64,000 bases of DNA from Octopus vulgaris (taxonomy: Eukaryota). The stretch is from positions 23,560,001 to 23,624,000 of the forward strand of contig OX597818.1 of the NCBI GenBank assembly GCA_951406725.2, given 5' to 3'. Shown here one piece after another: positions 1 through 37,857 of the stretch (positions are counted from its first letter, which is position 1; each line of letters starts with the position of its first letter). The translations under genes were made by a program, and so were the position numbers. Below the pieces are notes generated by a model. It made no database searches. It saw nothing but the letters and a program-made list of their open reading frames with translations, and had not been told where the DNA came from.

Positions 1-463
1 TCAAGCACACAAGTAGAATTACTCACAACTTCATGGTTGTATTCATAAATCTATATTAATTCACTAGTAGAGATACCCGGCGTTGCTCGGGATTAAGATT
101 ATACACACACACGTGCACACATAGTGTTGTCATTTCTATTCTTTTTGTTTTTTAACTGCTTGTTCAATCAAGCACACAAATAGAATTACTCACAACTTCA
201 TGGTTGTATTCATAAATCTATATTAATTCACTAGTAAAGATACCCGTCATTGCTTGGGATTAAGATTATACACACACACATGTGCACACATATTGTTGTC
301 ATTTCTATTCTTATTGTTTTTTAACTGCTTGTTCAATCAAGCACACAAATAGAATTACTCACAATTTCATGGTTGTATTCATAAATCTATATTAATTCAC
401 TAGTAGAGATACCCGGCGTTGCTCAGGATTAAGATTATACACACACACACATGTGCACACATA
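1..463 (-). repeat. Tandem repeat (~168-bp unit, at least 2.7 copies); each unit contains a Helitron-type 3' terminus on the minus strand
   Basis: Units start at 1, 168 and 337. Reverse complement of 63-95 reads TAATCCCGAGCAACGCCGGG-TATCTCTA-CTAG-T (GC hairpin, short spacer, CTAG). Confidence 0.75.
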
Positions 464-747
464 GGTACATACACACATACATACATATGCATTCACACAT
501 ATGTGCATGTGTACGTATATGTATATACGTGCATGTGTATATACATTTACCTTTATGTATTTTTTGTATGAGTGTATGGGGGTGTACACATACGTGTATA
601 GATATGTGTATGTGTAGGTATATATAAGTATATCCATATGTGGGTATGTATATGTAGGTGTGTACACAATATATATGTGTATACATATGCATGTGTATGT
701 ATATATATATATATATATGTATGTGTATGCACATTTTATTTCATTTG

Positions 748-1076: not shown

Positions 1077-4000
1077 GTAAGTATTGTTTTCTATTTTTCT
1101 CTAACATTTCTATTTCAGTAGTGTTTTTTGTGGCTTCTCCTACCCACATTCTGTCAACTTTGGTGACTGCCTCTCCCCCTTCCCCAAAGGTTTGCTTACT
1201 GTATGTCTTTTCTTTACATTAATGACCATTTACTATCACCTCTAATTTCACTCATGACTATGTGGTGGTGAAAATTAATTTTGGGAGTTTTTGTAGAAGC
1301 AACATTGAATGAAGAACTTGAAACACATTTTGCTTTATGAAATAGAGTAAATTAAAACTTAACCCTGAAAAATTTTTTTTTTTTCACTAATATTATGTAT
1401 ATTTTTTATTATTACTTTTACAGCTTCAAGTGCTTGTTCTTTCAAGAATGGGATGTGCTCACAGCTCTGTGTACCTCGACCTCATCATTTGCATATTGGA
1501 CACAACAATCGAACTTGTCTCTGTCAAAACCACATTGGACATATTCTAAAGCCTTCTGGAGATGAAGACTGTTATTGTCCTCCAGGGGAAACTTACCAAA
1601 ATGGAATTTGCAAACCAAACAACAGTAAATATGATATTCCCCCTTATCCAATCTCTTCTCTTCAGCTTTATTTTTCATTCATTATTCATTGTTATTCTTA
1701 TAGCTTTCACCTTGGATTGACCATTTTAGTTTTACTTCTGTAAAATCCTTCTTCCTTGTTTTCTATGTATTCCCACTTACCTCAACACGATGAGATAATA
1801 AGAACATCCTCTCAATGAAGGAAAAGGAATGAAATTAAAACAAATTGTAGATTAAATTACATGGTAACTTTTCAAAACTTTTAGAGCTCATTCTGATAGA
1901 CTGTGAAATTGATAAGAATTGTGAATAGAGTAACAGTGGTTAATACTGAAAAACTTGTACTTTAGTGTTGACAACAAAATTGTCAAAATTTTTGGATATA
2001 ACTCTACTGGCAGCTTCAAAACAATAGTAAGATTTTTTTTAAATATTCGTGGTTTCCATGAAGGATTATCCTTATGTTAGCTTATTTTTTAATCACCATA
2101 TATTTTTCTGAGTATTCACTGAATGAATTCATACATAGTTTTGTTAATACTTATCTTCCTATTTGTCAGATACTTGCGAACCGCATCAGTTTCAGTGTCA
2201 CAACAGCCAATGTGTCGCAGCTGCTGTGAAATGTGACCACGATCCTGATTGTGTTGATGGCAGTGATGAACTTAACTGTGGTTAGTATTACCAATATACT
2301 AGCATTATTTAATTGATCATGTAGTGTTTATATATATACAATGTTTATTCACACCATTTGTAAACAGTGTGTTTCCTTAAGAGCAATATTCTATTACTAA
2401 TATCATTTACTTTTTGTCTTGGCTATATTTTCATCACCAACAGCATCACTATCATCTGATTCACCCTTTTTTTTTTCTTGGAATAGAAATTCTTGATACT
2501 TTACTATTTACTTAGCTTCATGTCATTACTAATTAAGTAAATGAAATTACAGGATATAACTATTTTTCACTTTGTCACCCACACTACTCCACATCATGCA
2601 TTTAAACTATTGTTCCTTTGCCATTCAGGCTAATATTTCACTGCATTCATTCTTATACACACTGCCCAGTGTTGAGTTTCTACACATACCAATGTTGCAG
2701 ACTGAGTATAGCAATTTTCCTGAAACTATCGAACTAAGAAAACTCTTTCAAATAACTACTCCATTAATCTTGTCTTTCAACTTTCAAACTTGCCAATACA
2801 CTCCAACCACTGACCCACAAATATGCTGTCTCTTCACTCTGCCTTGCCTACCACTACTGCTGTGGCCTCTGCACCTTGGACCTGCCTTGTTCCATAACAT
2901 TTTCAGTCAGACACTCCCATCTTGCTTATGACTCCTTTTCTCTTTACTTGTATTGTGTATTCATCTCCCATTGGCCCAACAGTAACTACTTTGTTCTGTC
3001 CTTCCTTCTCAAAACATCTGGAATTCCCTACCTGCATATCTTCTTTGTAGTTAACAACTCTTCCAAGAGCAACATTAACGGCATCAATCCCACCAATCTC
3101 AGATGCAACCTCTTCATCCAGACTAAACCAATTAAAAACAAAAAAAGCTTACCATACTTCAGATTAACATTTTATTGGCTTCAGGACTCATGAAAAGACA
3201 AGCAAGTTAATACTGGAATCTTGGAAGATATCCATGTAACTTCCTTGCCTTGTTTAAAGTTTTCTGAACCAGAACTCACACTCCATTCAATCATTTCTAG
3301 CTTTCTTTTGTCCTGCAAACTATAGAATCTTCAGGAAAGCAATTTATTAGTTCTCTGATATTACACATTATCTTTTTCTTTAGCATGAGACCAGTTTTAT
3401 AAATGATGTGGATGTAATCAAACGATTCAACCTCTAGTATTATGCCATTACTTATTTTACATCCTGAAACTTTAAATTAAGAATTCCAAACCTAAAAGCA
3501 CATTCCTCTCAGACATCTACTCTGCCAATTCTTGTAAATATGTTAGTATGATTTAATTGCTGGGTGTTCACTTAAAAGCTAAGTTTTTGTTTCTTTCACA
3601 TATGGTGTATTTAAAATACTCTAAATACATTTAAGTTTTTGTTTGAGGTTTATGTTGTAATGTATCTAAGATATAGTTGCAATTTGACTAATAGTTGACA
3701 ATTTTTTTTCAACTGTATTACATTTATCTCAAAATCAATTAAAATCTGTCTTGGATTTGCAAAAGAAAATATTTTAGTGAATGTTGTAAAAATATTAAGA
3801 TGGTAATTATCATACATTAAATGAAATAACATAATATCTTGGTGCACCTTATTACTGTTACACATTAATTTTTTTTTGTCTCAGAATGAAAATATTTGCT
3901 ACTTCTATCTCACAGTTTCTGTGATTAATATTAGATAAGGTTTCCAACTTATTCCAATAATTTGTGTATTCCATTTGCAAGACAAATACTACTGCTTATT

Positions 4001-5934
4001 GAGAATACTCAAAAAAAAAAAATTTAAATTAAAAAAAATAGACTGTAAAGAAACTGAATAAGTCAGCTTTGTTGTAGCTCTAATCATAGTTATTACTATT
4101 ACAAAAGATAGATCCAGTTAGTCTCTTAAATGACACTAGCACAAAAAGAAAAAAGAGATTTCATGATGCAAATAAACTGGAGATGATATTAGGTGATGAT
4201 AGTTTTTATTATTGATCTCTTCTAACCAATCAAAGAAGAGGGGAATAGGTTATAATCATTTACTTTGTAATCATATATGGAACAGAAAGCTTGTAGATAA
4301 TATCTAATTAAAATGGATATGTTCCATAATGTAAGTAAAATTATATTTCTTTGTTTCTTAGACTTTTTTTTAATTTCATAATGAACATTCAGTTCCCTTA
4401 TACAAACAAACCTTTCCTTTTTCTTTTCTGTTTTGTACTTTGTTTTTTTTTCCCCCTCCTGTTTCTGATCAGCGTATTTAGATTGCATGAACTGCAAAGC
4501 TCCTCAGAAATAATTAATCGCACTTGACTGCAACTGAATGGTTTGTTATCACCCAGTGTAGCTATCACATTCTCATTTCACTGAGATTTTACATCATACC
4601 AGCTCCTATCAGCTGCTCTATGTTAGTTTTGTTTCCCTGCAGAATATCATCCATGTTCTGAAGGTAACTTCCGTTGTCCTAACATGCAATGCATCCCACA
4701 CCACTGGCTCTGTAACCATGAAAATGACTGCAGTGATGGCTCTGATGAGAAAAATTGCAGTGAGTATTTCTGTCTCATCTTCCTTAAATATTCCTGCGAT
4801 TTTATTTTTTATTTTATTTTTTGATATTTAAATATTTTTGTTACTATTTTATTTGTTTGTTGTTATTTTTTCTGAATTGATTAGCATAAAAAAAATAGAA
4901 ACACATACAGTATGCATTATTTACAACTCTTATTTTTGCATTAACATTCCATTGTGGCATGGGAATAATAACAAGGACAAAAATGTTGGATAAATTTGTA
5001 TTAGAAAAATTTTGGAAATCAACTTGAAATAATAGTAATAATCTGTTCTACTATAGAGGCAGAAGGCCTGAACTTTAGGGGTTGAAGCCAGTCAATTACA
5101 TCAACACCAGTGCTCAACAAGCACTATTTTATTGACTGCTAAGGGATGAAAAGTGAAGTTGAATGATTTAGTCATATAGCCAGCAGTTTTGAAGGAAAGA
5201 AAGCAGTTGATTATATCAACCCAAGTATTTGTTTGGTAGTTTATTTTCTCAACTGGAATTCAAACTCAGAATTTATATGACTAAAACTAAATACTGCAAA
5301 AGCACGGGTCTAACGCTCTAACGATTCTACCACTCCCTGCCCTTTATTATAATAATAATAATAATAATAATTTCAAGTTTTGCCACAAGGGCAACCATTT
5401 TGGGGGAGGTGATGAGTTGATTACATCAACCCCAGTATTTCACTGGTACTTAATTTATCAACCCCGAAAGGATGAAAGGCAAAGTCAACCTCAATGGAAT
5501 TTGAACTATAATAATAATAATAATTTTTAAAATAATGATAACAGTAATAATGAAATTTAGGCATAATTATGTAGGAATAGAAATGCTTCAACTGAAGCAA
5601 AATTATTTGCTGCTAGCAGGAGTGTTCTTCCATTCGTAACATATAAAAGTTAATATTTTCTCAATCCTTCAATATTTAGTTGTAAACCAAAGATATTAAA
5701 CTGGGTAGGTGTTTGAAATCACACTGTCTGATAAATTGCTTGACAGCCAAATAATAACAATTAGTTAAAGATATGGTTAGTATTGACATGATTCTTAATA
5801 CATTTTATTCTATTATAATCATAACTAATAGAAATTAGATGTCTAAATATTTGAGATAAATTGCTAAGATTATAATTTTTTTTAGGCTATTAACCCACTT
5901 ATCATTAAGTATCTAGTTCCTATATATATATATG

Positions 5935-5967
<33 letters not shown>

Positions 5968-8900
5968 CATCATCCGTTTAACGTCCGCTTTAAACAACGA
6001 TGATGATGATGATATATATATATATATATAGATAGATAGGTAGATATACAGATATACATATATCATCATTATCGTTTAACATCTGTTTTTAATGCTAGCA
6101 TGGGTTGGGCAGTTCGGCTGGGGTCTGGGAACCCAGGAGGCTGCACCAGGCTCCAGTCTGATCTGGCAGTGTTTCTACAGGTGGATGCCCTTCCTAATGC
6201 CAACCACTCTGTGAGTTTAGTGGGTGCTTTTTATGTGCCACTGGCATGGAAGCAAGTCAAGGCAGCGCTGGTATCGGCTATGTTCGGATGGTGCTTTTTT
6301 TACATGCCACTGGCACGGGGATCACAACTACAATTTCTATTTGATTTTCATTTTGATGTTGATGTACTTGACTCAATAGGTCTCTCCAAGCACAGCATGT
6401 TGCCCTACAATCCAAGATACTTTTGAATGAGCTGGGGCTGTAACACCAGATTTGATTAAAACTAAGAACCTATTATGTTGTGGATAAGAATGTTATTACC
6501 CCTTTAGTGTAGAATTAAAGGTTTCTAGTTTGAATCTAATTCAATACTATATATGTAAATAGTATGAAGATCAGAGGTCAATCTGATTGAAGTAGGGTGT
6601 AGATCTCAATATTTAAATTGTCTTATATATCTAATGATGGAATTAATAGTCCAAAAAATTATAACGGTTCTTTTGGTGTTTCACTCTTTAGCTGCAAAAT
6701 TAAATTTCATGGTTATTCCAGTAATGGTGTTAAATATCTACCAAAAAATAGGATTGGTATTTTTTATAAGTCATGCTCCCCAGTGCCGTTTGACTGGCAC
6801 ATGTGCTGGTGGCATATAAAAAGCACTATTCGAGTGTTGGGCCTCACAAAGGCAGTGACAGGTGACCAAGATCTTTGGCAATATACCATGCTTGTGTAGA
6901 CCTGTCAAGCCAGGTGAGACTGTAGTTGTGGTCATTGCCAGTGTCAAGTCAATGGCACCCATGCCAGTGGCATGTAAAAAGACACCCACTACACTCTTGG
7001 AGTGGCTGGCATTAGGAAGAGCATCTAGCCAAAGAAACCTTGCTAAATCAGATCAGAACCTGGTACAGCTCCCCGGCTTACCAATCAAACTGTCCAACCC
7101 ATGCCAGCTTGGAAAACGGATGTTAAATGATGATGTTGATGATGTTGCCTCAATAAACTTGATACATCTCAACAAAAAATAGTTTTAAATACAATATCAT
7201 TCCTCAATAGAAGATAGATTAGTATATAAAACTGCTTTCCACTATTAAGGGTAATGAAATTTTGAGTGGATATATCTGATTTCCACACTAAAAGGATGAA
7301 GTTAATCTCATTAAAAATATTGATAGGATTAATTTTTGATTTTTTCAAATGAAGCTCTAAAACACTTATTTCTGCAGGTCAGATTAAAGCACCAGATAGG
7401 GACAATTATTCATAAATTCCCTATTGATAACTAAACCAAAATAAATGGATAAAGTGGTCAATATAATCATAACAACTTTATTAACAATAAAGAAACAATG
7501 AGGTGTAAGCAATGTTGTTTGCAGCGATGTATGAGAAAAGCTCATTCATATGGTGTACATACAATCCTATTAAATAAGAGTCTTTAGTGTGAGAACAGAG
7601 ATAGAAATTGCTTAAATGAATGCAGGCAGTTTTTTTGAGAAGACCAGTGCTTGGTAGAAAGCTTGCACTATTTCATTTTCAAGCCCTTTCAACATCATCC
7701 ATGTATCAGTTGAATCTATTCAAATGAGCTCATACCTAAATATGAAAAAGAAACTTTCACTTCCATTTGCAATGTATAGACATAAGATTTATACACTTCT
7801 TTTTCAGTGGTTGAGAAAACAAAAGATTCTCTAAGATGCACTAATTTGACTCAACTCTCATTTGGATTCCAACACTGAATGTATGCTAACAATATATATT
7901 TTATGGAATATTTTAAAAGTTAAAGAATAATTTAATACTTTACTATAAAATTGAACTTGGAGGTGAGGTTAGACTAAACATTATCATGAGCCAGATCCAG
8001 TTCACTGCTCATTTGTTTGAGACTCCTACTTTCAAACATTTCAAGTGATTTCTTTCAAATTGTTGATTTAAAACATTAGTTATATTTGTTGTCCCCTATG
8101 TGCTGCTTTTCTCACCTATAGATATCAAGCTTTATTTCATCATGTAATAATTAAAGCTAGTAAAGAAAATCTTTCTTTTCAATTAAGGTAATAAATGAAT
8201 TTAGTAAGATGAATTATTGTAATCTATCTGAAATGAAACTCTACACTTAGTGAAGACATAATTGAATCAATTTGCCTAGATACTGATAATGTATCATTTA
8301 AGAGCTGTTTTCACTTTTCTTTTCTGACATTTTAGCTAATTCATGATTACATGTACCAACTTATGTAATGTTAACTTCCTTCTAGTCTGTTAATTTTCTT
8401 GATCTTTTTTTCTTCTTTGACATTAAAAATAACTCATCTCTAATAATGTTGGTCTGTTTCCCCTTCCATTTTCCAGCCTATCCACCTTGTTCTTCTGCTG
8501 AATTCACTTGCAATAATGGCCGCTGCATTCCTTTGAATTGGACTTGTGACTTTGATGATGACTGCCATGATTATTCTGATGAAGCTAACTGTGAAGATGG
8601 TAAGTTGTTTTGGAATAATTTTTTTCCTGACTTTATCTGTTTGCTAAATTACTTATGAAGTAAGATTTCTATGGGTTTTTAAAAATCCAAACAGAATAAT
8701 CTGGTACTGTAGACCAGATATTATTGACTACAAATTTTAGCACAAGGTCAGCAAGTTTGAGGAAGTGGGGAAGTTGATTACATCAACCCTGTTTCTCAAC
8801 TGGTGCTTATTTTTATTGACCCTGAAACAAAAAAAATTAAAGTCGACCTTGGCAGAATTTGAACTCAGACCATAAAGGTAGATGAAATGCCTCTTAGCAT

Positions 8901-11900
8901 TTTGCTCAGCATGCTAACAATTCTACTAGCTTACCAGGTATTATTGTATGTGACTTGGAAAGAAGAGAATGCTTCATAATAGAAACTACAATTCTTTCAG
9001 AAAAAACATTGCAAACAAAGAACTAGAAAAGATCTCAAAGTATGTTAAATTAAAAGTAGGAATATCAAGAATGTAGGGACACCCAGCTGTGTAATACGCA
9101 CCAGTGTTGCAAAATAAGTTTAATTACCAATAAACATCAACTTGGATGACACTTTACTCAACCGACAGAGGAAGGTGATTGATCAAACTGATTATGTAAA
9201 CAGAATTCTGGTTGGTCGAAAGTGTCCTCTTGTCTCAAGCTCTGATTTTCTGCCTATTCTTGTTGGAACCTTTGATATGGAGTATCGAAATTTTAATCCC
9301 TTTCGCACTTATAAAATGTCAAGCAAACTTAAAAATTTGTCATTACCATTTTAGCCGGAAGACCATACTGATAGTTTGGTAACCCGCTAAAATAAACATT
9401 AAAAATCAAAAGGAGAAAATAAACAGCTTTGCAAGTTTAACTCGGTGTTTATTGAACAAGGGAGGTGTGAAACTTAAGAAGCGACTTGTTAGAATATACA
9501 TGTCTGTGAGGAGACATAAACAAGAATAGCAAAAATCTACTATACCAAAAGAACTGGTAATACATACATTACAAGTGTTCTCTGAAGAGAACATAAAATT
9601 GCTGCATAATTCAGCATGAATGTGAAATGACATTAAACATTGTATAAGGTAAATGAAGGTTTCTGCAGGAACACCAAGTCATATTCACTTAGTGAGGATG
9701 AATTTTGACATCATTGGCATTAGATGCAGTAAGAGCTGGTAGCGGCAATGAATTTCATTGTCTTAATGCAGAGAAAGTAAGCAATAGTTTCCTGGAGGCA
9801 AATGCAAGCTAAACTTCTTAAATGGAGAAAAACTGATCTATTTAAGGAAATTGCTGGGCTCCATTGCAATAGGTAGAAACTCCAAGCTATGTAAAATTTG
9901 GCCCAGACCATGATTACTAGCATGAACATCAAACTTCAAAAAGTAGTTAACCATTTAATGGTTTTAGTAAATTTATACAGAAAAAGTAAGCATTATACCG
10001 TCCAGCATAAATAAAAGTCAACTTCATTATATTTTTTTTGTTAAAACTTATTCTGACATTAAATGAGTCAACTTCCTGTACAAATGTTTACATTTGTACA
10101 TCATTTTTCAAGAAAAAAAATTTCTAAAAAAGTTCTGGAAACAATCCAAAGTTTATTTTTGTTTTTGCAAACAAAAAGTTCGTAAATTACATGGGTTTTA
10201 TGGTAGTCTAAAAGTCTCTACTTCTAAATCATCTTAATACGAACTTGATAAAAAAGTAATGCACACTACATGTTTATAACCCATCTAATTGCTTTTAATG
10301 TGATATAAATATGTCAATATTTGATGCATGCAGGTTTCTATTTCTGCCTGTCTTTTCTAATGACATTTTTTTAAACACATTAGACTATAAATTTCATCAA
10401 AGCCATATTCTTTTTACCAAATTATTAGCAGCTGCTTTATGTTTGTTTTATTTCTCTACAGAATTTAACCAGTGTTCTGAAGGTAATTTCCATTGCCCTA
10501 ACATGCAGTGTATTCCAAGACATTGGATCTGTGATCATGAAAATGACTGCAGTGATGGTTCTGATGAGAAAAATTGCAGTGAGTATTTCTGTCTCATCTT
10601 CCTCAAATATTCATAACAGATTCCTTTTCTTCAAAATGTTTTTCATATTCTTTTTGTTTACCTTTTATCTTTTACTTGAGTCAATCATTGGACTGTGAAC
10701 CTACCTGTTGGGGCACCACCCAGAAGGGTCTGCTCAAACAAATCAACTCCAGGACTGAGTTTTAAGTCTGGTACTTATTCTATAAGTCTCTTTTGCCTAA
10801 CTGCTGTGGTATGAGGAGATAAACAAACCAACACCAGTCGTCAAGTGGTGGTGGTGTATGTGGAGGGGGGTATCTCTCACACACATGCACACGTAAGGTG
10901 TCATGTGGTGGAACTGAACCCAAAACCACATGGTTGCAAAGCAAGCTTCTAAACCACACAGCCATTACAATGTTAATTTTTAAAAATGATTTGTGTAAAA
11001 TAAATTGTATCTCACTACCATACAGGTATACAAGTATGCATGCATACACACAGTATTATAATTATACAGTTTGATTTAAAAGTGAATATTGTTATACTAT
11101 TTTCTCATTATGATATCAAACCAAGAATATACTAATCCTTTTCACTATCTAAAGTTTCATGCACTATTTTCATTTCCTTCTTCTAGCTTACCCGTCATGT
11201 TCTCCTAATGAATTCACATGTAAGAATGGCCGTTGTATTCTTTTGAATTGGACATGTGATTTTGATGACGATTGCCGTGATTACTCTGATGAAGCTAACT
11301 GTACAGATGGTAAGCCAATTTGAAAATCACCCTATCCAACTGCTAAATCAACTATGACATCATTTATATAGAACATTGATATTTTCAGTTTGAGCTCGTA
11401 TTTCCCCTCATTTTTTTATTTTCATATATTGCCTGATTAAAATATTAGCGTTTGATATGGATGGTGCACTATATGTTAGAACAATGGAATTTATCTTCCA
11501 TCTGTTGATAGCAGAGATTTCTTTGCTTAATTATTTAAAATCAATCCTCATGAGGATGATGGATTTAGTTATTGGTTGACCCACTATTTTTTGTATATAA
11601 AATTCTTTGTCTGTCTGTTCTCTATGCATTCTCAAATGGCTCAACCAAATCAAATCAAATTTTACAAGGTAATAAGTATGAGTGTAAACATCTAATTGAG
11701 TTTAATCACCTCATTGGTTCGCTGTTACCCACAAATGAACAAGCACAGTTCCTCCAAATTATGAGTGATGTAGGGCAACAAACCTGAAGAAGGTGTCAAA
11801 ACTTCAGACGATGGGTCGTGTTAGATGCAGCGCCAACTGCTGCAAAGAGTCTATCCACTGACAGCTTTTCGGTGTGTTCAAAAATCACATAACCCCCACC

Positions 11901-14900
11901 CCCAATTTTCCATGACAGGTTAGGACCTGCATACTCCAAATGGATGCATGCTATGACACTTAGTTGTATTAGCTCATCAATTACTTCACAAATGTTTTGT
12001 CATCAATGCTGCACTTTCTCATATCACCTGTTTTAACATAACTGTAATATATATACAAGCTATGCCATTTTAATCCCAAGCAACGCCAGGTATCTCTGCT
12101 AGTTACATATAAATAAGTATAAATTTAGGAGTATAGTGTAATGTCAGGAGCCACACAAAAATGTGTGTATATATATTTTAAAACCCAAACCATATTTATT
12201 TTATTTCCTAAGGACAGTGGGTTGACTGAATCAGCATACTGGCAAGCAAAATACTTTACGATTTATTATTACATCTCTTGTTACATGCACGCAGCCTACC
12301 GTGCTAATGATTCTGCCAGCTTACTACCAATGACTTTATGTGTATCAAATGCACATCTGTGTTTATTTATACATGTGCTTTAAATGTATGAAAGTAAACA
12401 TGTTTTATCATGATTGGTTGTGCTTTGATGAAATCGTTGATAAAAACCATCAGTGAAGAAGTAAAGGAAAACTAATTAATAACATTAGTTATGTGGAGTG
12501 ATGGAAGAGGGATAGTACTTTTTAATATCAGTTAGTACATTTCATTCAAGTTTTAGTTAACAAAAAAATTTTTTGTAGTATGTTTTACTTATTTATTTGC
12601 AGCAAGAATTTTATTTATACATGTGGTTTTTCTTTTTTGGTATTTTTTTCATTCCATATAGTTTACAAAACTACACAACCTGTTCCAACTACAACTAAGT
12701 CAAGTTCCTTGCCCAGATGTAATGGTGTAGAATTCCAGTGTGACAATGGCTTTTGTATTTTTGCCAGTGAACGTTGTGATGGCATCAATGACTGTGATGA
12801 TAACTCAGATGAAGAAAACTGTAAGTAACAAATTGTATATTACAAAGTATAATTGTTATAGTTCTAAGAATGTTAAAAAGAAAATAAAAATACTCAAGAT
12901 TTTCCAAGTTAATTCAGGTGAGATACAAGAAAAACGTGATTTCCAAATACTGAAGTAAAAAAAAATAAAATACAAAATATAGCAGCTTTAGACCAGTAAT
13001 TCCATAACTATTTTAGGACACTGGTCCTCTTGTCTTCTTAAAGACAATATTTGCTATTAAAGTCTTGTTCAGAATTGTATATATTATAGAAGATTATAAT
13101 ACTTCAAAATTCAAAACAGTAACAAATAGTTTCATAATTTATTCAAAATTAATTTTGCAAGGTGACGGTCAGTATAAATAGACTAGATATAGTTTCACTA
13201 CTACTCACTAAGCTCTGAATTTCTGAAATACTCTGATGAATTTTTACCATATATTTTCCTGTATATTTCTATCATGAGTCTTGTGAGTGGATTTGACAGA
13301 TGGAAACTGAAAGAAGTCTGTCACATATATACATTTATAATACACCTGTATATATATATGTGTATGTGTGTATGTTTGCATCTCCTTGTCTTGACATCGC
13401 ATGATTTTTTAAAAATGAAAATCATTTCCAATGTTTTAAGAAAACATGTCTAGGGAAATTATTACCTTGCTTGGAAACAGCTAAGGTTGACAACTGGAAG
13501 GGTTCTGGCCCTTAGAAAATATGCGTCTGAACGCATAGAAGATCTGCATCTGTGTTGAAACAATGATGACAATAGCAATGATCTGGATTTCTTTTTGTCA
13601 TTCATATATATTCCTCATAGTCTTCAGCATTTCATTGAGTTGCTTGATGTTATTTGTCAAAGGTAAACCAGCAGGACCAAGAAATGAAATTTGTGGCTTA
13701 GACCAATGTTAAAAATCATTGTCGAATTTGCTAATGGGCATGATTAGTGGAGCATCAGACAAAATATTTTGCAGTGTTTAGCTATAATCCTGAGTTCAAA
13801 CTTTGATAAGGTCAGCTTTGTTTTTCATCAGCGTCATCATTGCTTATCATCCACCTTCCATACTGGCATGGGTGGGACAGGAGCCGGTGAGGCAGAAGCC
13901 TGCACCAGACTTCTCCAACTGTTTTGGCAAGATTTTTACAGCTGGATGTCCTTAGAATCTATATAGCACCAGTCAACTACTGGGGAGTAATTTAATCAAT
14001 TCTACTCTCTCGCTTAAATGTGTGGCTTTTTGCCATTATTGGAAATCAGTATTATAGTTTTCACTTATCTTTAGTTATATATTTTTTGGTATTATTGCTA
14101 CTATAACTGTTATTTTTACCTTTTCAAGGTTTCCTTTCTCCTCCACCACCAAGCTGTAAAGCAGATGAATTTCAGTGCACTGCTGATAGAAAGTGCATCC
14201 TAACAAGGATGCAATGTGATGGCCATGTAGACTGCTCTGATCGAAGTGATGAAGAATATTGTCGTAAGTAAAGAGAACCCTTATTATACCAAACTAATAC
14301 GAGAGTGGGTTGTCCATGTTCACTGATTGTGATGATATGGGTTGATATTGTATATGTGTATAAGGAAAAGATATACATTATAAACAATAGCAAAATTACA
14401 GGGGAAAAGGATGTTAAATGGTAATGATGATGATTTAATAATACAGAAGGTAAAAATTAACAAGTTCTAGTAGTGATTCTGCTATGTGAGCAAGGTCATC
14501 AGCATAGAGTAGCTCCCAGGGGCAGCCTGTCTTGAATTCCTCTGTTATTGCCTGGATGACTATGATGAATAAGAGGGGGCTGAGGTCTGATCCTTGGTGA
14601 ACCCCTACTTCTACCCGGAATTTCTCACTATACTCATTGCCGACCCTTACCTTACTTACAGCATCCCTGTACAAGGCCTGTACAGCTCTTATTAACCACT
14701 TGTCAATCCCCAGTTTCCGCATCACCCACCAGACAAGGTGATCGGGGGACCCTATCAAAGGCTTTCTCCAAGTCAACAAAAGCCAAGTATAGGGGTTTAA
14801 CTTTGGCTTGGTATATTTCTCCTACAGTTGCTATACCAAGAATATAGCATCAGTGGTGCTTCTACCTGGCGCAAAACTGAACTGCATCTCATCTAAGCAG

Positions 14901-17900
14901 ACTCTCTCCCTAATTAGTTGGGCTATGACCTTCTCTGTGACCTTTATCACCTGATCCAGCAGTTTGATACCCCTGTAATTATCTCTATCTAAAGCATCAC
15001 TTTTATCTTTGTAACAGTTGACTATGGTGCTACTATGCCAAATGTACTGCTAATTTTGTCATAAGTTGATCAATTGATTAAATTAATATTTGTGTGTTAT
15101 GGAGATGTATTTTACCTTCTCCAGATGAGGGAAAGCAGACAACATGAGTGGAACAAGCCAAAATGCTACCATCTTGCTTGTCTTTGTTATCTGTTTTAAG
15201 TCATGTATTGTTAATCTATACAAACTGCTTATCCTATACAAGACTGGATTTTTTTGTTTTTTTTGATGGGTGGGTGGGAAAGAATATAGACAGCCAAACA
15301 ATTTCTCTCTTTGTTCCTTTCCTTATTTCATAATTCATGTATGTTTCCTTATTCTGCAACCCCTCCCCACCCTATTACACTATCCTTTCCTTTTGTAACC
15401 ATTCCTGTAAGCTATTAGGGAAGTATAGCAAATACATAGGTGTGTGCAGTTCAAATATATTATATTTAGAAATAGATTCCATTGTTTAATGAAATAATTA
15501 TTCTGTCGTCTATGGTTGAAAAACAATAGCCAAATCAAGCTTTTATTTTTATTAAAGCCTTGGGATAGGTCAGTGAGTCAATTATATAGATTTGTGACTT
15601 CATGAGTTGAAGTTTGACGTATATGAAATTAATTGCACCAATCCTTAAGCACTAAAATAAAATAGGAAGTATCTATTAATATTTTGGGATAATTGGTGCG
15701 GATGAGAGAAAAACAAGTATAAAAATCACAATGGGAAAATATATTTGGAAAATAATTTTTTATCTGATTTTTAAAATTTTAACATTTTAAAATTTTCTTT
15801 AACAATTGGTTAAAGTTTCAATATCACTTTCTGTTTTTTGTTCTTTTTATGTATTTTTTTAACTAGCATCAGGCAATGAACATAAATGTGAAGGATTTTC
15901 ATTCCGCTGTACAAATGGTATGTGTATTCACATGTCATGGACTTGTGATGGTGAGAACGACTGCAATGATAATTCTGATGAAGAAAATTGTCCAACCATT
16001 GAAAAATGTGGAGAAGGCATGTTTCACTGCGTACAATCCCCTGGCTGCATTCCACAAAGCTCTATTTGCAATGGTATCAATGAATGCATTGATCATTCAG
16101 ATGAAAGGGATTGTTACTACAACCACTCGAGTAACGGTGAGTACTTTACGTCATGGCTATTTTGAGGGAAGCAACTGATTTGTCTGAACTTCTAGAAATT
16201 GTCATATTAATAGAGAACAGCTAGATTTTGATATGGTCTTGTCTGTCTGTCCTTCTAGATTTAATGCAAGAGAAAAAGTTACAAGATGATTAGCTTCACA
16301 GGTATCAAGGAAAATATATCCTAATATGAAGCAACATTACAAGTAATCATTATTTGCTTGGAATATTGAGAAAGAAATTGGCAGATTTGGGGAAGATAAT
16401 GAAATGAAATAAGAATAGGAACATTCTTTATTATTTAAGAGTCAGCCATTTGTGACCTGTCTAAATATGTTAAAATGAGAACATTTCTGGAAAGCAGAAG
16501 CCATGTTTAGTTACAGTAACAGAAACTTAAAATTCACAACATTCAACAATATTTTGTTGTGGCTGACAGTTCCATTTTTCTCTCCCCCACCCCCGGAGAA
16601 GTTAACATCTTTTTAATGCTTTTGATACCAAACTACCCAAGGCCACTTGGATCTTATTCAAACTTCCTGCTTTAAAGTAATCTAAATTAAAACCTTCTAT
16701 CAAGATTTCTTATTAATCTATGTTCCAAACACAAAATTAGTACTGACAAAATTATTTTACTAAATTTTTCATTATTTTCAAAATTAATTGAAACAAAGTT
16801 AATGTATTTCAGTAGAAATATTGTAACAAAAGGGGTAGAAGATTAGTTTTAGAGAGAGACTTGAACTATTTTTTTATGCCAACATAAGCCAGAGTTGGAA
16901 TGGATTATATTTAAGGACACCTTCAGTGATGTTAGTAATATAACAACAGTTGCCTTTATAATTATTATTTGAACAATTTCATCTAGATTGTTCATGTAGA
17001 TAAATACTATAAGGACAAATACAGAGTTGATTCCTTCTATTTTCTCTCATAATTTCTGTATATCAAAGCCGCTTAGTTGTTAAGTGAAAATTTGTTTAAA
17101 AAGTAGAATAAATAAATCAAATGTATTTCATTTTACTAAGATAAAAATGTATTATTAAATATGTTGAAGAAAAATCAGTCTATTGAATAGCTTTGTCCTA
17201 AGCTATGAACTCCAAACTACTACATTTCTTGTTTTGATTTTCAGGATTTAACAGGCCCCCAAAGTCATGTGCTGACTATGAGTTCTTATGTGAACCTGAT
17301 AGTGACAGGTGTTTACCTTACTGGAAAGCATGTGACAGTCACATTGATTGTCTTAATGGCCGGGATGAAGAATTTGGAATGTGTAAAGGTTAGTGCCATT
17401 GTATATGATGAATGCATAAACTTCAATGATTATTATATGGTAGTTGTGTAAATGAAGCTAGTGTTAAGACTGTAGCCATGCTGGGGCACTGCCATGGAGA
17501 ATTTTTTTGAAGTCAAATGTTTCTATACAATATGAATTGTCTAGGTATTTTCTCTAGAGCTTATTATAAAATCCCATCCATTTCTGAGCCTAAATTGCTG
17601 TGACTGTCAAAGTATCTCTAGAGCAGTTGTTGTTATTTAACACTTGGTCAGTCCTGACTGAGCAGGCTTATGTCAAAGGCATTTCATTCATGGTCACTCT
17701 GTTCTCTCTTCAGCATTGCATATCTAGGACTACATTTTCCAATGTGCTCCCAATGCACCCACCTCCCAAAAAACTTTAAAAATCTGTAGGATATGATTTT
17801 AAGAAAATTTGGCTGCTATTTCTAGCAGGTTGAACAATCATAGAAAGTCTCTTTTGTTAGATTTCCCAAGATGGGTTTTCAGTTGTTGAAAACTTATGTA

Positions 17901-35900: not shown

Positions 35901-37857
35901 GAAAGATTTTCAGCAGTACTGTGTTATCAACAGTACATCAGTCAGTTTGAATAAACTTGCTAAAGGATTCATGTATCAACTAAAAGTGCGACTGAATAAA
36001 ATTGAAGGCTACTATGGAAAATTTAGTAGTGTAGCTTCCCTTGCCATTCCTTGTAAGTATTTTTGTGTTATGTTGTTGTGTTTAAGAAATTAATATTACA
36101 AATATTTGTTTATTAATCTATGTTGCTTTGCTAACCCTGCCCCCCATTTTTTTTTCAAGTAGAAGACACTTGCCCAAGTTATCATGCAGTGGAACTGAAC
36201 CTGAAACCACATGGTTCCAAAGCAAGCTTTTTAACCATATAGCCATGCCTGCACCTATAAAGTTTAGTTGTGCCTGCAGAGGGCTGAATTCAGTTCAAGA
36301 CACATTCTTAATTAAGGCTTATTATTATGTTTGTTTCTTTGTTTTTTTCCTTAATCTTCTACTGTTTCCAACAACCTTTGAACCCCAAAACTTGCTGCTC
36401 CAAATTTCGGCATCCTTCTCTTAGAAACTACCTTTCTGTTCAGAATGACTTAATATATTTTAAAGAAAACATATATATTTAAAGAAAAATTATATTGAAA
36501 AGGAAACTAAATTACACACCTCTTTCTTTCTTTTCTTTTTTTTTTTTTACAGTGACTGTGAAGGCCTCAAGTGTCAATCTTGTTGCCATCGTTGTACCCA
36601 TCAGTGTTGTGACTCTCATCTTAGTCATCTTAGGCAGTATCCTCCTTGTTCTTTTTGTGCGACATAAACGCCTCCAACGCAGCTTCCTTGCCTATGCCAG
36701 TAGTCATTATGATCCTCGATCAGAACGAACGACCTTTAATTCTGCAGAATATCTAGGTAAGTTGCTTTTTTTTTCCCCCCTTAAATTTTATGTTTGCTTT
36801 ACTTTGTCATACATTTTTGATAAAGCCAGAAAAGCGCAAAGAAAATATTGTGTCATCCCATAACTAATGCGGTTTTTTATACTTCTTTTATTTTTCAAAA
36901 TTAAGAGAAACAAAGTTCTTTTTTAATCTAAAATATACTCTCCTTCATTTTCTACAATGCTCTTCAATCTATCTGGTAGACTTACAAGGTCCCTCTTCCA
37001 AAATTCACTTGTCCATTACAAAAAATACTCCTCCAGTACTGTTCTAACCTTGTCTACAGAATTCATATTTTCTCCGTCCAAATGATTTTGAAGACTTCAA
37101 AATAGATGATAATCAGATGGAGCAATGTCTGGCAAATATGGTGGATGGGGCATTGTTTCCCATTCAAACTGCTTCAGCCTTTGGAATATCATCCTCACTG
37201 TATGTGACCGAGCATTATCCTGATGGAAGAACATCTTTTGTCTTGAAACCAAAGATGGTCGTTTTTCTTCTAGCACTGACTTAAGCTGCTCGCAGTAATC
37301 TCCTTTGTTATCATTTGGTTTGGGTTTAAAAGTTCAAAGTGGACTAAACTTTTCATATCCCACCAAACATATAACCCACCTTACATGGGTGAAGACCTTT
37401 GTTAGCCTGAGGTGCTGGTGTTTCTCCTTTCCCTACCTTGACATTTTTATAGAGAACCCATTTATCGTCACCAGTCACTATTCAGTTCAAAAGAGGTTCA
37501 TTCATGAGACATGACAGCTAAAAAGAGCACACATTCGCTCTCTGCAAGTGATTAGACTCGGAAAGTTTGTGAGGAACCCACTGACCCAATTTGCTCACTT
37601 TTTCAATGGCACATATATACATCATATGTCTGTACCAGCTCAGTCTTCTCTCTTTTGAATTCCATTGTTCATGCACTGCTAACATCCTGTGGAACATGCT
37701 CACCTCATTCCTTCCCAACTTTTATACATCCTTCTCATTTAATTCCTGTATTTCATTACCATTTAATATTACTGTTTTTTCTTTCTTTTCAGGAGAAGAC
37801 GAAGATTCTCCAATGATAACAGGATTTTCTGATGATGAACCGTTAGTGATAGCATAG
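938..37857 (+). CDS. SORL1: Sortilin-related receptor (SorLA/LR11), 3' part of a multi-exon gene: 25 exons in the window, 5' end lies upstream
   Basis: Exons join in frame via GT-AG junctions (3630 nt). Domain order YWTD, 8-Cys EGF, 10 LDLa, 6 FN3, TM, tail is diagnostic. The tail [19 protein letters not shown]...[22 protein letters not shown] matches human SORL1 RRLQSSFTAFANSHY...[23 protein letters not shown]. Confidence 0.95.
1424..1624 (+). CDS. SORL1: SORL1 exon: 8-cysteine EGF-like domain
   Basis: ttacag|CT...AAC A|gtaaat; [65 protein letters not shown] (8 Cys). Confidence 0.9.
2170..2280 (+). CDS. SORL1: SORL1 exon: LDLa/CR repeat 1
   Basis: gtcag|AT...TGT G|gttagt; [36 protein letters not shown]. 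Confidence 0.92.
4643..4759 (+). CDS. SORL1: SORL1 exon: LDLa repeat 2 (duplicate A1)
   Basis: ctgcag|AA...TGC A|gtgagt; [38 protein letters not shown]. Confidence 0.9.
5371..5507 (-). mobile_element. tRNA-derived SINE, family 1, partial
   Basis: Homologous to the full copies at 23293 and 56812 (core GCCTTTCATCCTTTCGGGGTYGATAAATTAAGTACCAG); further decayed copies lie at ~5040-5340. Confidence 0.75.
6063..6430 (-). mobile_element. RTE-clade LINE 3' end
   Basis: (CAT)n-CGTTTAAC...CTAGCATGGGTTGG...GGATGCCCTTCCTAATGCCAACCAC, shared with the RT-bearing copies at 29551 and 51341. Confidence 0.75.
6772..7142 (+). mobile_element. RTE-clade LINE 3' end
   Basis: Same 3' UTR in the opposite orientation, ending GTTAAATGATGATG. 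Confidence 0.75.
8477..8599 (+). CDS. SORL1: SORL1 exon: LDLa repeat 3 (duplicate B1)
   Basis: ttccag|CC...GAT G|gtaagt; [40 protein letters not shown]. Confidence 0.92.
8727..8932 (-). mobile_element. tRNA-derived SINE, family 1, with 14-bp TSD
   Basis: Homology to the 23293 copy; flanked by ACCAGATATTATTG / ACCAGGTATTATTG. Confidence 0.75.
10462..10578 (+). CDS. SORL1: SORL1 exon: LDLa repeat 4 (duplicate A2)
   Basis: ctacag|AA...TGC A|gtgagt; [38 protein letters not shown]. Confidence 0.92.
10670..10965 (-). mobile_element. tRNA-derived SINE, family 2, deleted copy
   Basis: Reverse-complement homology to 55524-55953 (head GGCTGTGTGG...GGTTCAGTTCCAC). Confidence 0.65.
11187..11309 (+). 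CDS. SORL1: SORL1 exon: LDLa repeat 5 (duplicate B2)
   Basis: ttctag|CT...GAT G|gtaagc; [40 protein letters not shown]. Confidence 0.92.
11590..12102 (+). mobile_element. Non-autonomous Helitron relic in the intron after LDLa5
   Basis: Ends in CCCAAGCAACGCCAGG hairpin + TATCTCTG + CTAG|T (12075-12103). Internal peptide [18 protein letters not shown] (11707-11760) resembles the RepHel motif HRIGSLLP...KFLQI. 5' boundary approximate. Confidence 0.65.
12662..12820 (+). CDS. SORL1: SORL1 exon: Thr/Ser/Pro-rich linker + LDLa repeat 6
   Basis: atatag|TT...AAC T|gtaagt; [52 protein letters not shown](C; codon split T|GT). Confidence 0.9.
14129..14263 (+). CDS. SORL1: SORL1 exon: LDLa repeat 7
   Basis: ttcaag|GT...TGT C|gtaagt; (C)[44 protein letters not shown]. 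Confidence 0.9.
14462..15040 (-). mobile_element. RTE-clade LINE reverse-transcriptase fragment (pseudogenised)
   Basis: [17 protein letters not shown]...[18 protein letters not shown]...FVDLEKAFD...[16 protein letters not shown]...[10 protein letters not shown]; contains stops and frameshifts. Confidence 0.9.
15867..16136 (+). CDS. SORL1: SORL1 exon: LDLa repeats 8 and 9
   Basis: aactag|CA (in-frame alternative acceptor at 15873)...AAC G|gtgagt; [78 protein letters not shown]. Confidence 0.9.
17245..17388 (+). CDS. SORL1: SORL1 exon: LDLa repeat 10
   Basis: tttcag|GA...AAA G|gttagt; [47 protein letters not shown]. Confidence 0.88.
18073..18275 (-). mobile_element. tRNA-derived SINE, family 1, diverged
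   Basis: Homology to the 23293 copy along its length. Confidence 0.65.
18437..18551 (+). CDS. SORL1: SORL1 exon: FN3 domain 1, N-terminal half
   Basis: ttcaag|AG...ATT GT|gtaagt; [37 protein letters not shown]. Confidence 0.85.
19300..19705 (-). mobile_element. Mariner transposase N-terminal (HTH) relic
   Basis: [31 protein letters not shown]...KFKQDETS resembles the mariner KQRAVIEFL...EIHRRL..VYGD...FK.G..S region; degraded. Confidence 0.55.
20772..20950 (+). CDS. SORL1: SORL1 exon: FN3 domain 1, C-terminal half
   Basis: ctgcag|A...GGC T|gtaagc; [59 protein letters not shown]. Confidence 0.88.
21877..21983 (+). CDS. SORL1: SORL1 exon: FN3 domain 2 start
   Basis: ttgcag|TT...CTA|gtgagt; [35 protein letters not shown]. 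Confidence 0.87.
22140..22749 (+). mobile_element. RTE-clade LINE 3' end (ORF end + UTR)
   Basis: [33 protein letters not shown] (RGRP..TW motif) followed by a (GAT)n tail. Confidence 0.85.
23023..23148 (+). CDS. SORL1: SORL1 exon: FN3 domain 2 middle
   Basis: ttgcag|GTT...AAG|gtaagc; [42 protein letters not shown]; phase 0-0 fits both neighbours. Confidence 0.85.
23293..23527 (-). mobile_element. Full-length young tRNA-derived SINE, family 1, with perfect 19-bp TSD
   Basis: Head GGGCGGCGAGCTGACAGAATCGTTAG...GAGTTCAAATTC (A/B boxes); TSD TTTTTAAAGAAAATATAAT at 23274-23292 and 23528-23546. Confidence 0.9.
24715..24940 (+). CDS. SORL1: SORL1 exon: FN3 domain 2 end / domain 3 start
   Basis: tattag|ATT...ACT A|gtaagt; [75 protein letters not shown]. 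Confidence 0.87.
26510..26608 (+). CDS. SORL1: SORL1 exon: FN3 domain 3 end
   Basis: tttcag|TT...AAA G|gtacag; [32 protein letters not shown]. Confidence 0.87.
27054..27198. mobile_element. hAT-type MITE (145 bp)
   Basis: TIR CACTAGCATAGCT / AGCTACGCTAGTG; 8-bp TSD ACCTAAGC / GCCTAAGC. Confidence 0.75.
27770..27867 (+). CDS. SORL1: SORL1 exon: FN3 domain 4 start
   Basis: cattag|GT...CAG|gtaaaa; [32 protein letters not shown]. Confidence 0.85.
28417..28721 (-). mobile_element. tRNA-derived SINE, family 3 (V-SINE-like core), with 12-bp TSD
   Basis: Head GGAGGCGCAATGGCCCAGTGGTTAAGG...GGTTTTGAATCCC; core CTGCGATGGACTGGTGTTCTGTCCAG; TSD ATATAGCATTAT at 28405-28416 and 28722-28733. Confidence 0.85.
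29228..29438 (+). CDS. SORL1: SORL1 exon: FN3 domain 4 end
   Basis: ttgcag|CGG...TCA G|gtaaat; [70 protein letters not shown]. Confidence 0.87.
29551..30815 (-). mobile_element. 5'-truncated RTE-clade LINE
   Basis: [27 protein letters not shown]...[17 protein letters not shown]...[14 protein letters not shown]; ends in a (GAT)n tail at 29551. Confidence 0.9.
31010..31113 (+). CDS. SORL1: SORL1 exon: FN3 domain 5 start
   Basis: atcaag|AT...CAG|gttagt; [34 protein letters not shown]. Confidence 0.87.
31742..31907 (+). CDS. SORL1: SORL1 exon: FN3 domain 5 end
   Basis: atacag|GTA...GTT G|gtaagt; [55 protein letters not shown]. Confidence 0.86.
32160..32455. repeat. Unclassified element embedded in (TA)n
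   Basis: Compositionally distinct ~300-bp block bounded by TA-rich tracts; no coding signal. Confidence 0.4.
32470..32880 (-). mobile_element. Degraded non-LTR LINE 3' end (CR1/L2/Jockey-like)
   Basis: [21 protein letters not shown]...[11 protein letters not shown] resembles LQPL.HRR.VASL.LFYRY...SFFPRT..LWN. Confidence 0.55.
32890..33110. mobile_element. Tc1/mariner-type MITE (~220 bp)
   Basis: TA-flanked TIRs CAAGGGGATACTGAAGAGTTTCTGGCTTT / AAAGCCCGGAACTTTTCAGTACCCTCTTG; second copy at 57132-57352. Confidence 0.85.
34361..34467 (+). CDS. SORL1: SORL1 exon: FN3 domain 6 start
   Basis: ttgcag|AA...ACG|gtgagt; [35 protein letters not shown]. Confidence 0.86.
34648..34897. repeat. Foldback palindrome (~120-bp arms), MITE-like
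   Basis: GTGATATTACTTTTAATACATTGTTTGCAAC...TTTGACCAATCTTGTGTCATGTTCATT is mirrored by AATGAACATGACACAAGATTGGTCAAA...GTTGCAAACAATGTATTAAAAGTAATATCAC. Confidence 0.85.
35869..36052 (+). CDS. SORL1: SORL1 exon: FN3 domain 6 end
   Basis: atacag|GGC...CCT T|gtaagt; [61 protein letters not shown]. Confidence 0.87.
36553..36756 (+). CDS. SORL1: SORL1 exon: transmembrane helix + FANSHY-like motif
   Basis: ttacag|TG...CTA G|gtaagt; [67 protein letters not shown]. Confidence 0.95.
36846..37611 (-). mobile_element. Mariner (DD34D) transposase relic in the last SORL1 intron
   Basis: [59 protein letters not shown]: WVPHEL, catalytic Asp and YSPDLAP motifs. Confidence 0.88.
37793..37857 (+). CDS. SORL1: SORL1 last coding exon: acidic cluster + GGA-type motif, stop codon
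   Basis: tttcag|GA...GCA TAG; [21 protein letters not shown]. Confidence 0.95.

What the first reader, a model, noticed from the sequence alone, without database searches (positions are those of the whole stretch)
4643..11309. Tandem duplication of a two-exon LDLa cassette (A1-B1-A2-B2) in SORL1
Seen: exons 4643-4759 and 10462-10578 (both 117 nt) differ at 19 nt by hand count. Exons 8477-8599 and 11187-11309 (both 123 nt) differ at 22 nt, about 12 of them synonymous, with 7 aa changes. All four have intact splice sites and Cys/SDE motifs, so both copies look under purifying selection. Known: the CR cluster is the ligand-binding region of SorLA, with 11 repeats in human. Here I count 10, two of which arose by internal duplication. 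Inference: a lineage-specific rebuild of the ligand-binding array, used either constitutively or as alternative A/B cassettes.
Basis: partly seen in the sequence, partly recalled or inferred. Interest (0 to 1): 0.75.

Follow-up and report, generated by a model that had tools for sequence, protein, structure and literature searches.

The report
Octopus SORL1 swapped two binding modules
In octopuses the cargo-sorting receptor gene SORL1 carries a second copy of two neighbouring ligand-binding exons, all four spliced into one message, and the copies likely replaced two older modules that cuttlefish still have, so the count stays at ten: a tidy but ordinary case of exon shuffling.

Summary
In detail: A1/A2 differ at 19 of 117 nt and B1/B2 at 22 of 123, with dN/dS about 0.09. 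The gene is SORL1 with ten LDLa (CR) repeats. RNA contigs from 6 of 6 runs laid (5 studies) run CR1-A1-B1-A2-B2-CR6 in one path, so co-inclusion is the main form. Three of 11 database Octopus isoforms lack one A+B pair; these were not seen in the contigs and may be minor or mis-mapped. Octopus and Argonauta have A-B-A-B. Cuttlefish and other molluscs do not, yet cuttlefish also have ten repeats. Trees place octopod repeats 4-5 inside cephalopod repeats 2-3 (AU p=0.0003). So this is a replacement, not an expansion: one duplication before the Argonauta-Octopus split, with loss of the old repeats 4-5. A1 has Asn at a calcium-cage Asp in both genera. A 77-nt tract across the A exon-intron border is 97% identical between copies. 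I found no paper on it, nor an earlier scan note on other DNA. Near-identical internal repeats occur in 11 of 117 LRP-type proteins, so the process is ordinary.

The parts
1425..1624 (+). EGF-like exon of SORL1, just before the CR cluster
   Evidence: joint 1624>2170; weak PF14670 match below cut-off
2170..2280 (+). CR1 exon (111 nt), orthologous to cuttlefish CR1
4607..4642 (+). Intron flank before A1, 83% identical to the flank before A2 (10426-10461)
4643..4759 (+). A1 = CR2 exon (117 nt, phase 1-1); Asn at calcium-cage position 37 (codon 4714-4716)
4717..4793 (+). 77-nt tract (3' part of A1 plus 34 nt of intron) with 2 differences from 10536-10612: gene-conversion tract or conserved splicing element
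8477..8599 (+). B1 = CR3 exon (123 nt, phase 1-1)
10462..10578 (+). A2, copy of CR2 in array position 4; keeps Asp37
10536..10612 (+). Partner of the near-identical A tract
11187..11309 (+). B2, copy of CR3 in array position 5
12662..12820 (+). Thr-rich linker plus CR6 exon, orthologous to cuttlefish CR6 (80%)
14129..14263 (+). CR7 exon
15867..16137 (+). CR8-CR9 exon (borders approximate, from contig pieces)
17246..17389 (+). CR10 exon (borders read from sequence)
36553..36756 (+). Transmembrane exon with a FANSHY-like motif (YASSHY)
37793..37857 (+). Last coding exon: acidic tail ending in DDEPLVIA and the stop codon
   Evidence: read; same tail in P0186 and P0009

Best explanation
This octopus SORL1 gene holds two copies of the CR2-CR3 exon pair, all four exons are spliced into one mRNA, and the copies likely arose by a single unequal-crossover duplication in an octopod ancestor that, together with an inferred loss of the old CR4-CR5 exons, left a ten-repeat array. 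Shown: identity of the pairs, purifying selection, co-inclusion in RNA contigs, presence in Octopus and Argonauta, absence in cuttlefish. Inferred: because all four exons are phase 1-1, both gain and loss of a pair keep the reading frame. The event falls after the octopod-decapod split (about 260-235 Ma) and before the Argonauta-Octopus split (at least about 29 Ma). Predicted, untested: the protein is an ordinary SorLA sorting receptor whose positions 2-5 now present two similar A-B binding units; A1 lost Asp37 and would bind calcium and basic ligands more weakly, while A2 took over the canonical CR2-type site. The 77-nt near-identical tract is most likely a later local gene conversion between the A copies.
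For: Pooled dS 1.06, dN 0.096, Fisher p=3e-10. GT..AG joints 2279>4642, 4759>8477, 8598>10461, 10578>11187 and 11307/8>12661 in single contigs of X14 and X2. In X1, X4, X8 and X12 one contig spans A1 to CR6 with exactly the 362 letters of B1+A2+B2 between. Octopus positions 2 and 4 both match cuttlefish CR2 best (71%, 71%); 3 and 5 match CR3 best (77%, 74%). The repeat tree joins octopod CR2+CR4 at 100/98 inside cephalopod CR2 at 99/98. The pair tree rejects 'all 4-5 pairs one clade' (p-AU 0.0003), 'octopod 4-5 with cuttlefish 4-5' (0.029) and 'Argonauta 2-3 with Argonauta 4-5' (0.006). 0 of 26 non-octopod orthologue rows have any repeat pair at 75% or more. Asn37 in A1 and Asp37 in A2 are shared by Octopus and Argonauta. 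Dates are from passages of PMC12682272.
Against: AU tests on single 39-column repeats did not reject orthology of octopod with cuttlefish CR4 (p 0.22) or CR5 (p 0.27). Three of 11 Octopus database isoforms have eight repeats (A1>B2 in two labelled O. vulgaris, B1>CR6 in one labelled O. sinensis), so inclusion may not be strictly constitutive. Contigs drop rare forms, and the joint tables were cut (64 and 90 rows not shown). No relic of old CR4-CR5 was found in the introns (best non-exonic E 0.16), so the order of gain and loss is not shown. No Nautilus, squid, vampire squid or cirrate sequence was retrieved; the decapod side is one 90% cluster of cuttlefish-type sequences. Clustering of third-position differences inside the A exon alone is not significant (p 0.14). 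Asn at position 37 also occurs in CR9 here and in other orthologues' repeats, so it may be tolerated.
Confidence: 0.85

Rival explanations
1. One-step replacement: the CR2-intron-CR3 segment overwrote CR4-intron-CR5 by ectopic gene conversion or template switching, so a 12-repeat or 8-repeat intermediate never existed. This differs from the best explanation only in how the swap happened.
For: The count is exactly preserved relative to cuttlefish (10 and 10), positions 1, 6, 7, 9 and 10 match their own cuttlefish position best, and no relic exon was found.
Against: Repeat number does change in SORL1 (9 in Haliotis, Tegillarca, Aplysia, Biomphalaria; 11 in gar), so separate gain and loss is plausible. 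Relics would have decayed anyway at dS about 1 (inference).
Confidence: 0.25
2. Regulated pair-wise skipping: the duplicated pair is a tunable cassette giving 8- and 10-repeat receptors, and the conserved intron flanks of the A exons are splicing elements.
For: Three of 11 annotated Octopus isoforms lack exactly one A and one B. Both flanks of the A exons are more alike (83% over 36 nt upstream; 1 difference in intron bases +7 to +34) than synonymous sites (57% differ).
Against: 6 of 6 RNA runs give one contig through all four exons, and no skip joint is among those listed. The assembler does break contigs at real branch points (the shared 33-mer in CR8). The last 19 nt of A1 and A2 are identical, so A2>B2 reads can be mis-assigned as A1>B2. 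No convincing long-range RNA partner for the flanks was found.
Confidence: 0.15
3. Ancient similarity or convergence: positions 4-5 are the old CR4-CR5 and merely resemble CR2-CR3.
For: Single-repeat AU tests do not reject it. Amphioxus and one unnamed orthologue reach 71-73% between CR2 and CR4.
Against: The pair-level AU test rejects it. The copies share exon lengths, intron flanks and derived residues with cuttlefish CR2/CR3, not CR4/CR5.
Confidence: 0.02
4. Assembly artefact (haplotype or collapsed-repeat duplication).
For: None found.
Against: 16-18% exon divergence, unrelated introns, spliced RNA contigs, genomic contigs in other runs, and the same array under four species labels.
Confidence: 0.005

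Closest known systems
SorLA / SORL1 (sortilin-related receptor), human
   Same: Domain order VPS10P-10CC-YWTD-EGF-CR cluster-FN3-TM-tail (described in passages of 10.1101/2023.02.27.524103). The CR cluster is a major ligand-binding site (passages of PMC5357279).
   Different: Ten repeats against eleven. Repeats 4-5 are copies of 2-3. Human position 37 is Asp in all repeats, whereas A1 and CR9 here have Asn.
Cuttlefish SORL1 (cluster of P0250, including CAE1322764.1 Acanthosepion pharaonis)
   Same: Ten repeats; CR1-3, CR6, CR7, CR9 and CR10 match their own position best.
   Different: Keeps distinct CR4 and CR5, which octopods lack; CR2 has Asp37.
Internal LDLa-repeat duplications in LRP1/LRP2/VLDLR-type receptors
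   Same: Same process: 11 of 117 LRP-type proteins with five or more repeats hold a repeat pair at 75% identity or more. Exon-wise gain and loss of LDLa modules in this family is established knowledge (recalled).
   Different: Several of those are expansions with near-100% copies (some may be annotation artefacts; not checked). Here the copy is old (dS about 1) and the count is unchanged.

Membership tests
SorLA/SORL1 | VPS10P domain with 10CC module | tested here: met
   Upstream exons in L017 and L018 match PF15902 (43 and 62 bits, cut-off 33) and PF15901 (61 bits, cut-off 27); a third PF15902 piece is below cut-off and one L016 piece matched nothing
SorLA/SORL1 | YWTD propeller followed by an EGF domain | tested here: met
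   PF00058 on two L018 exons; the EGF-like exon 1426-1623 matches PF14670 only below cut-off
SorLA/SORL1 | Cluster of LDLa/CR repeats | tested here: met
   Ten repeats; nine pass PF00057's cut-off, CR10 is just under
SorLA/SORL1 | FN3 cassette | tested here: inconclusive
   Two single window exons tested gave no Pfam hit. The full-length Octopus protein P0186 lists PF00041 and orthologue P0001 matches fn3 and fn3_SORL1. The six domains were not counted.
SorLA/SORL1 | Transmembrane segment and tail with FANSHY-like and acidic motifs | tested here: met
   YASSHY in exon 36553-36756 and the acidic tail at 37793-37857; motif names from PMC5357279. 10 of 11 exon translations tested occur letter for letter in proteins named sortilin-related receptor (P0300, P0302); the eleventh was entered out of frame.
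LDLa (CR) module, canonical | Six cysteines | tested here: met
   Invariant in all ten repeats
LDLa (CR) module, canonical | Calcium cage D37, D41, D47, E48 and Asx-turn D44/S46 | tested here: not met
   Met in B1, A2 and B2. A1 has Asn37, so A1 alone fails (numbering, its supplementary alignment not seen).
LDLa (CR) module, canonical | Calcium and ligand binding | not testable with these tools
   Needs binding assays
Mutually exclusive or cassette tandem exon duplicates | Copies are used in place of one another in mRNA | tested here: not met
   All four exons lie in one contig in 6 of 6 RNA runs; minor skip forms are not excluded (3 of 11 annotated isoforms)

The most novel reading that the evidence does not exclude
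Octopods rebuilt SorLA's ligand-binding core as two interchangeable A-B units by overwriting old repeats 4-5, then used pair-wise skipping (8 versus 10 repeats, controlled by the conserved A-exon flanks) and loss of the calcium-cage Asp in A1 to tune cargo selectivity by tissue.
Probability: 0.12. Interest if true: 0.55.

Novelty: new variant of a known kind. Interest (0 to 1): 0.3.

Why it matters
It is a clean, datable natural experiment on an Alzheimer-risk receptor. It shows that SorLA repeats 4-5 can be replaced by copies of 2-3, which suggests that the number and spacing of modules may matter more than their identity. It also shows that Asn at calcium-cage position 37, a class of position tied to disease in human SORL1, has been kept in one copy in both Octopus and Argonauta once a second copy existed. 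The swap is also a rare-change marker for octopodiform phylogeny. The mechanism, frame-preserving exon duplication in an LDLa array, is well known, and no functional change is shown, so interest is modest.

Tried and rejected
Homologue searches with single exons were limited to proteins up to 2000 residues and returned one partial orthologue or only LRP-type proteins. PDB sequence searches gave LRP2/VLDLR/LDLR modules and no SorLA CR chain among the 60 of 73 rows shown, and two weak ephrin-receptor hits for the FN3 region. The ESM Atlas gave generic FN3 clusters only. The run search listed no holder on record as RNA; the runs used are guessed RNA, and their GT..AG joints show splicing. A1 and the region before it were thinly covered in the two genomic runs: no conclusion drawn. 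A search for long-range RNA pairing of the A and B flanks gave -21 to -30 kcal/mol against -20 to -29 for 6 shuffles each: rejected. A-to-I editing that would turn A1's Asn37 into Asp: no A>G row at 4714 in the difference tables of six RNA runs; contigs drop rare variants, so this is not supported but not excluded. Relic CR4/CR5 exons: 144 non-exonic tblastn hits of 354, none better than E 0.16. The contig break near 15960-15990 in three runs is not alternative splicing: a 33-mer is shared with another LDLa exon. Single-repeat AU tests lacked power. Octopus CR8 is closer to cuttlefish CR5 (63%) than to CR8 (54%); I considered relocation and rejected it because CR8 shares its exon with CR9 and Argonauta CR8 does not show the preference. 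Earlier scan notes: nothing by sequence or place and one unrelated sea-squirt note by words. No fold or complex was predicted.
Full report
Observation. Each encodes one LDLa repeat. Among the ten repeats of the gene only A1/A2 and B1/B2 reach 82% protein identity; the other 43 pairs are at most 62%. A DNA search of the whole 2.8-Gb genome found the A exon twice only, both in this window (the tool gives counts as lower bounds). Similarity extends about 36 nt into the intron before A and about 35 nt strongly (100 nt weakly) after it. For B it is confined to the exon and splice sites, and other intron matches are dispersed repeats.

The gene. Exons upstream of the window match Sortilin-Vps10, Sortilin_C and LDL receptor class B models. 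The window holds an EGF-like exon, ten CR repeats, the transmembrane exon with YASSHY and the acidic tail. Ten of 11 exon translations tested occur letter for letter in proteins named sortilin-related receptor of O. vulgaris and O. sinensis; the eleventh was entered out of frame. It is an octopus SORL1.

Selection. Codon counting gives dS 1.18 and dN 0.094 for A and dS 0.97 and dN 0.098 for B; pooled dN/dS is 0.09 (Fisher p=3e-10). The duplication is old and both copies are constrained.

Splicing. Six guessed-RNA runs from five studies were laid, of 24 runs listed. In X14 and X2 one contig carries all five joints from CR1 to CR6. In X8 the pieces for A1, B1 and B2 are listed with a 118-letter gap for A2. 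In X4 and X12 exactly 362 letters separate A1 from CR6, and in X1 the CR6 piece starts at letter 510, which fits the same path. No skip joint is among those listed, but 64 and 90 joint rows were not shown and contigs drop rare forms. The assembler does break at true branch points: three runs break in CR8 at a 33-mer that is identical in another LDLa exon elsewhere on the contig. Against strict constitutive use, 3 of 11 members of the Octopus protein cluster have eight repeats: two join A1 to B2 and one joins B1 to CR6. The A1>B2 form is open to mis-mapping because the last 19 nt of A1 and A2 are identical. B1 and B2 differ at 2 of their last 7 nt, so the B1>CR6 form is more likely a real minor skip (inference). 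The two genomic runs show none of these joints and hold unspliced pieces over B1, A2 and B2.

Age and direction. A search of 1.84 billion representatives and a follow-up gave full-length orthologues, named. Argonauta hians and three Octopus species have A-B-A-B. The cuttlefish cluster (Acanthosepion pharaonis and unnamed Logan proteins) has ten repeats with distinct CR4 and CR5. Of 26 non-octopod rows with five or more repeats (chosen as long proteins with the SorLA tail or high rank; two are near-identical cuttlefish rows), 14 have ten repeats, 10 have nine and 2 have eleven. None has a repeat pair at 75% or more; the highest are 73% and 71%. Octopus positions 2 and 4 both match cuttlefish CR2 at 71%, and positions 3 and 5 match CR3 at 77% and 74%; position 6 matches CR6 at 80%. 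In a tree of repeats 1-6 from 12 proteins, octopod CR2 and CR4 form a branch at 100/98 inside cephalopod CR2 at 99/98, with A1 copies of Argonauta and Octopus together and A2 copies together; octopod CR5 sits with CR3 at 81/91. AU tests on these 39 columns were inconclusive (p 0.22, 0.27). With two-repeat units from 14 proteins (79 columns) the tests reject a clade of all 4-5 units (p 0.0003), octopod with cuttlefish 4-5 (p 0.029) and separate duplication in Argonauta (p 0.006) (the tool warns of long branches among outgroup 4-5 units). So one event, after the octopod-decapod split (about 260-235 Ma) and before the Argonauta-Octopus split (fossil minimum about 29 Ma; passages of PMC12682272), put copies of CR2-CR3 where CR4-CR5 had been. 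No squid, Nautilus, vampire squid or cirrate sequence was obtained.

How it likely happened. All four exons have phase-1 borders and lengths divisible by three, so copying or deleting a pair keeps the frame. I favour unequal crossover giving a tandem copy, with separate loss of old CR4-CR5, because SORL1 repeat number does drift between 9 and 11. A one-step overwrite is a real rival, and no relic exon settles it. From exon position 75 to intron base +34 the A copies differ at 2 of 77 nt, against 18 of the first 74 exon positions; the 24-nt donor flank occurs only at these two places in the genome at up to one mismatch. Intron bases +7 to +34 differ at 1 of 28 where synonymous sites differ at 57%. 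Later gene conversion is my preferred reading; a conserved splicing element is the alternative. Within the exon alone the clustering is not significant (p 0.14).

What it likely does. The CR cluster is a main ligand-binding site of SorLA (passages of PMC5357279). In human SorLA positions 37, 41, 47 and 48 form the calcium cage and substitutions there were seen only in patients (passages of 10.1101/2023.02.27.524103; its supplements were not seen, so I placed the numbering from Cys36 and Cys42). B1, A2 and B2 are canonical. A1 has Asn37 in both Octopus and Argonauta, while A2 and cuttlefish CR2 have Asp, which suggests relaxed or altered function of A1 after duplication. Asn37 also occurs in CR9 and in other species' repeats, so it need not be disabling. 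Counting repeats with Trp34 plus acidic 37, 39 and 41 (a ligand fingerprint recalled from memory, not from a call) gives four in Octopus (positions 3, 4, 5, 8) and four in cuttlefish (2, 3, 5, 8) (read): the swap looks neutral in binding-site number too. No binding was tested.

Comparison and novelty. Internal duplication is common in LDLa arrays: 11 of 117 LRP-type proteins have a repeat pair at 75% or more. Searches for SORL1 with octopus (2 unrelated papers, listing only), sortilin-related receptor with cephalopod (0), SorLA evolution in invertebrates (2 unrelated, listing only), and exon duplication or skipping in SORL1 or LDL receptors (listings only) found no description of this event; subscription journals are mostly outside the library. 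The sequences are already in public annotations. Verdict: a real, old, octopod-specific, count-neutral replacement of two ligand-binding modules, mainly co-included; a new variant of a known process; interest 0.3.

Noticed in passing
Upstream of the window, between exons L017:5500-5700 and L018:1328-1510: Octopus isoforms differ by a 10-residue insert in the VPS10P domain (P0302 versus P0306). The cuttlefish cluster also has 2155- and 2145-residue forms (not aligned). This may be a coleoid-conserved alternative micro-exon in the other ligand-binding domain, a better splicing lead than the A/B pair.
   Followed up: partly
window 15959-15991 and L024:1501-1533 (G000:C5:78146496-78146528): A 33-nt stretch of CR8 is identical in an LDLa exon 54.6 Mb away; it explains the contig break in three runs. 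Chance or conversion not decided.
   Followed up: partly
window 2170-2280: CR1 lacks the Trp at position 34 in 5 of 5 cephalopod rows but has it in 14 of 14 non-cephalopod rows, so CR1 may have lost a ligand contact in coleoids before the duplication.
   Followed up: partly
window 1-480: About three tandem copies of a roughly 180-nt unit in the intron before the last YWTD exon (seen by eye).
   Followed up: no
L015:1616-3449 and L017:960-1658: Long open frames that look like LINE reverse transcriptase, and mariner-like transposase fragments in L014 and L018 (labels recalled from motifs, not from a library search).
   Followed up: no
window 5350-6340, 6830-7150, 8720-8900, 12300: High-copy dispersed repeats (SINE-like; label recalled) fill the A1-B1 and B1-A2 introns and attract thousands of contigs; they partly explain why the A1-B1 intron (3717 nt) is longer than the A2-B2 intron (608 nt).
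   Followed up: no
P0301 (gene end near window 37850): One annotated isoform ends in a different C-terminal tail instead of the final DDEPLVIA motif; it may be an annotation artefact.
   Followed up: no
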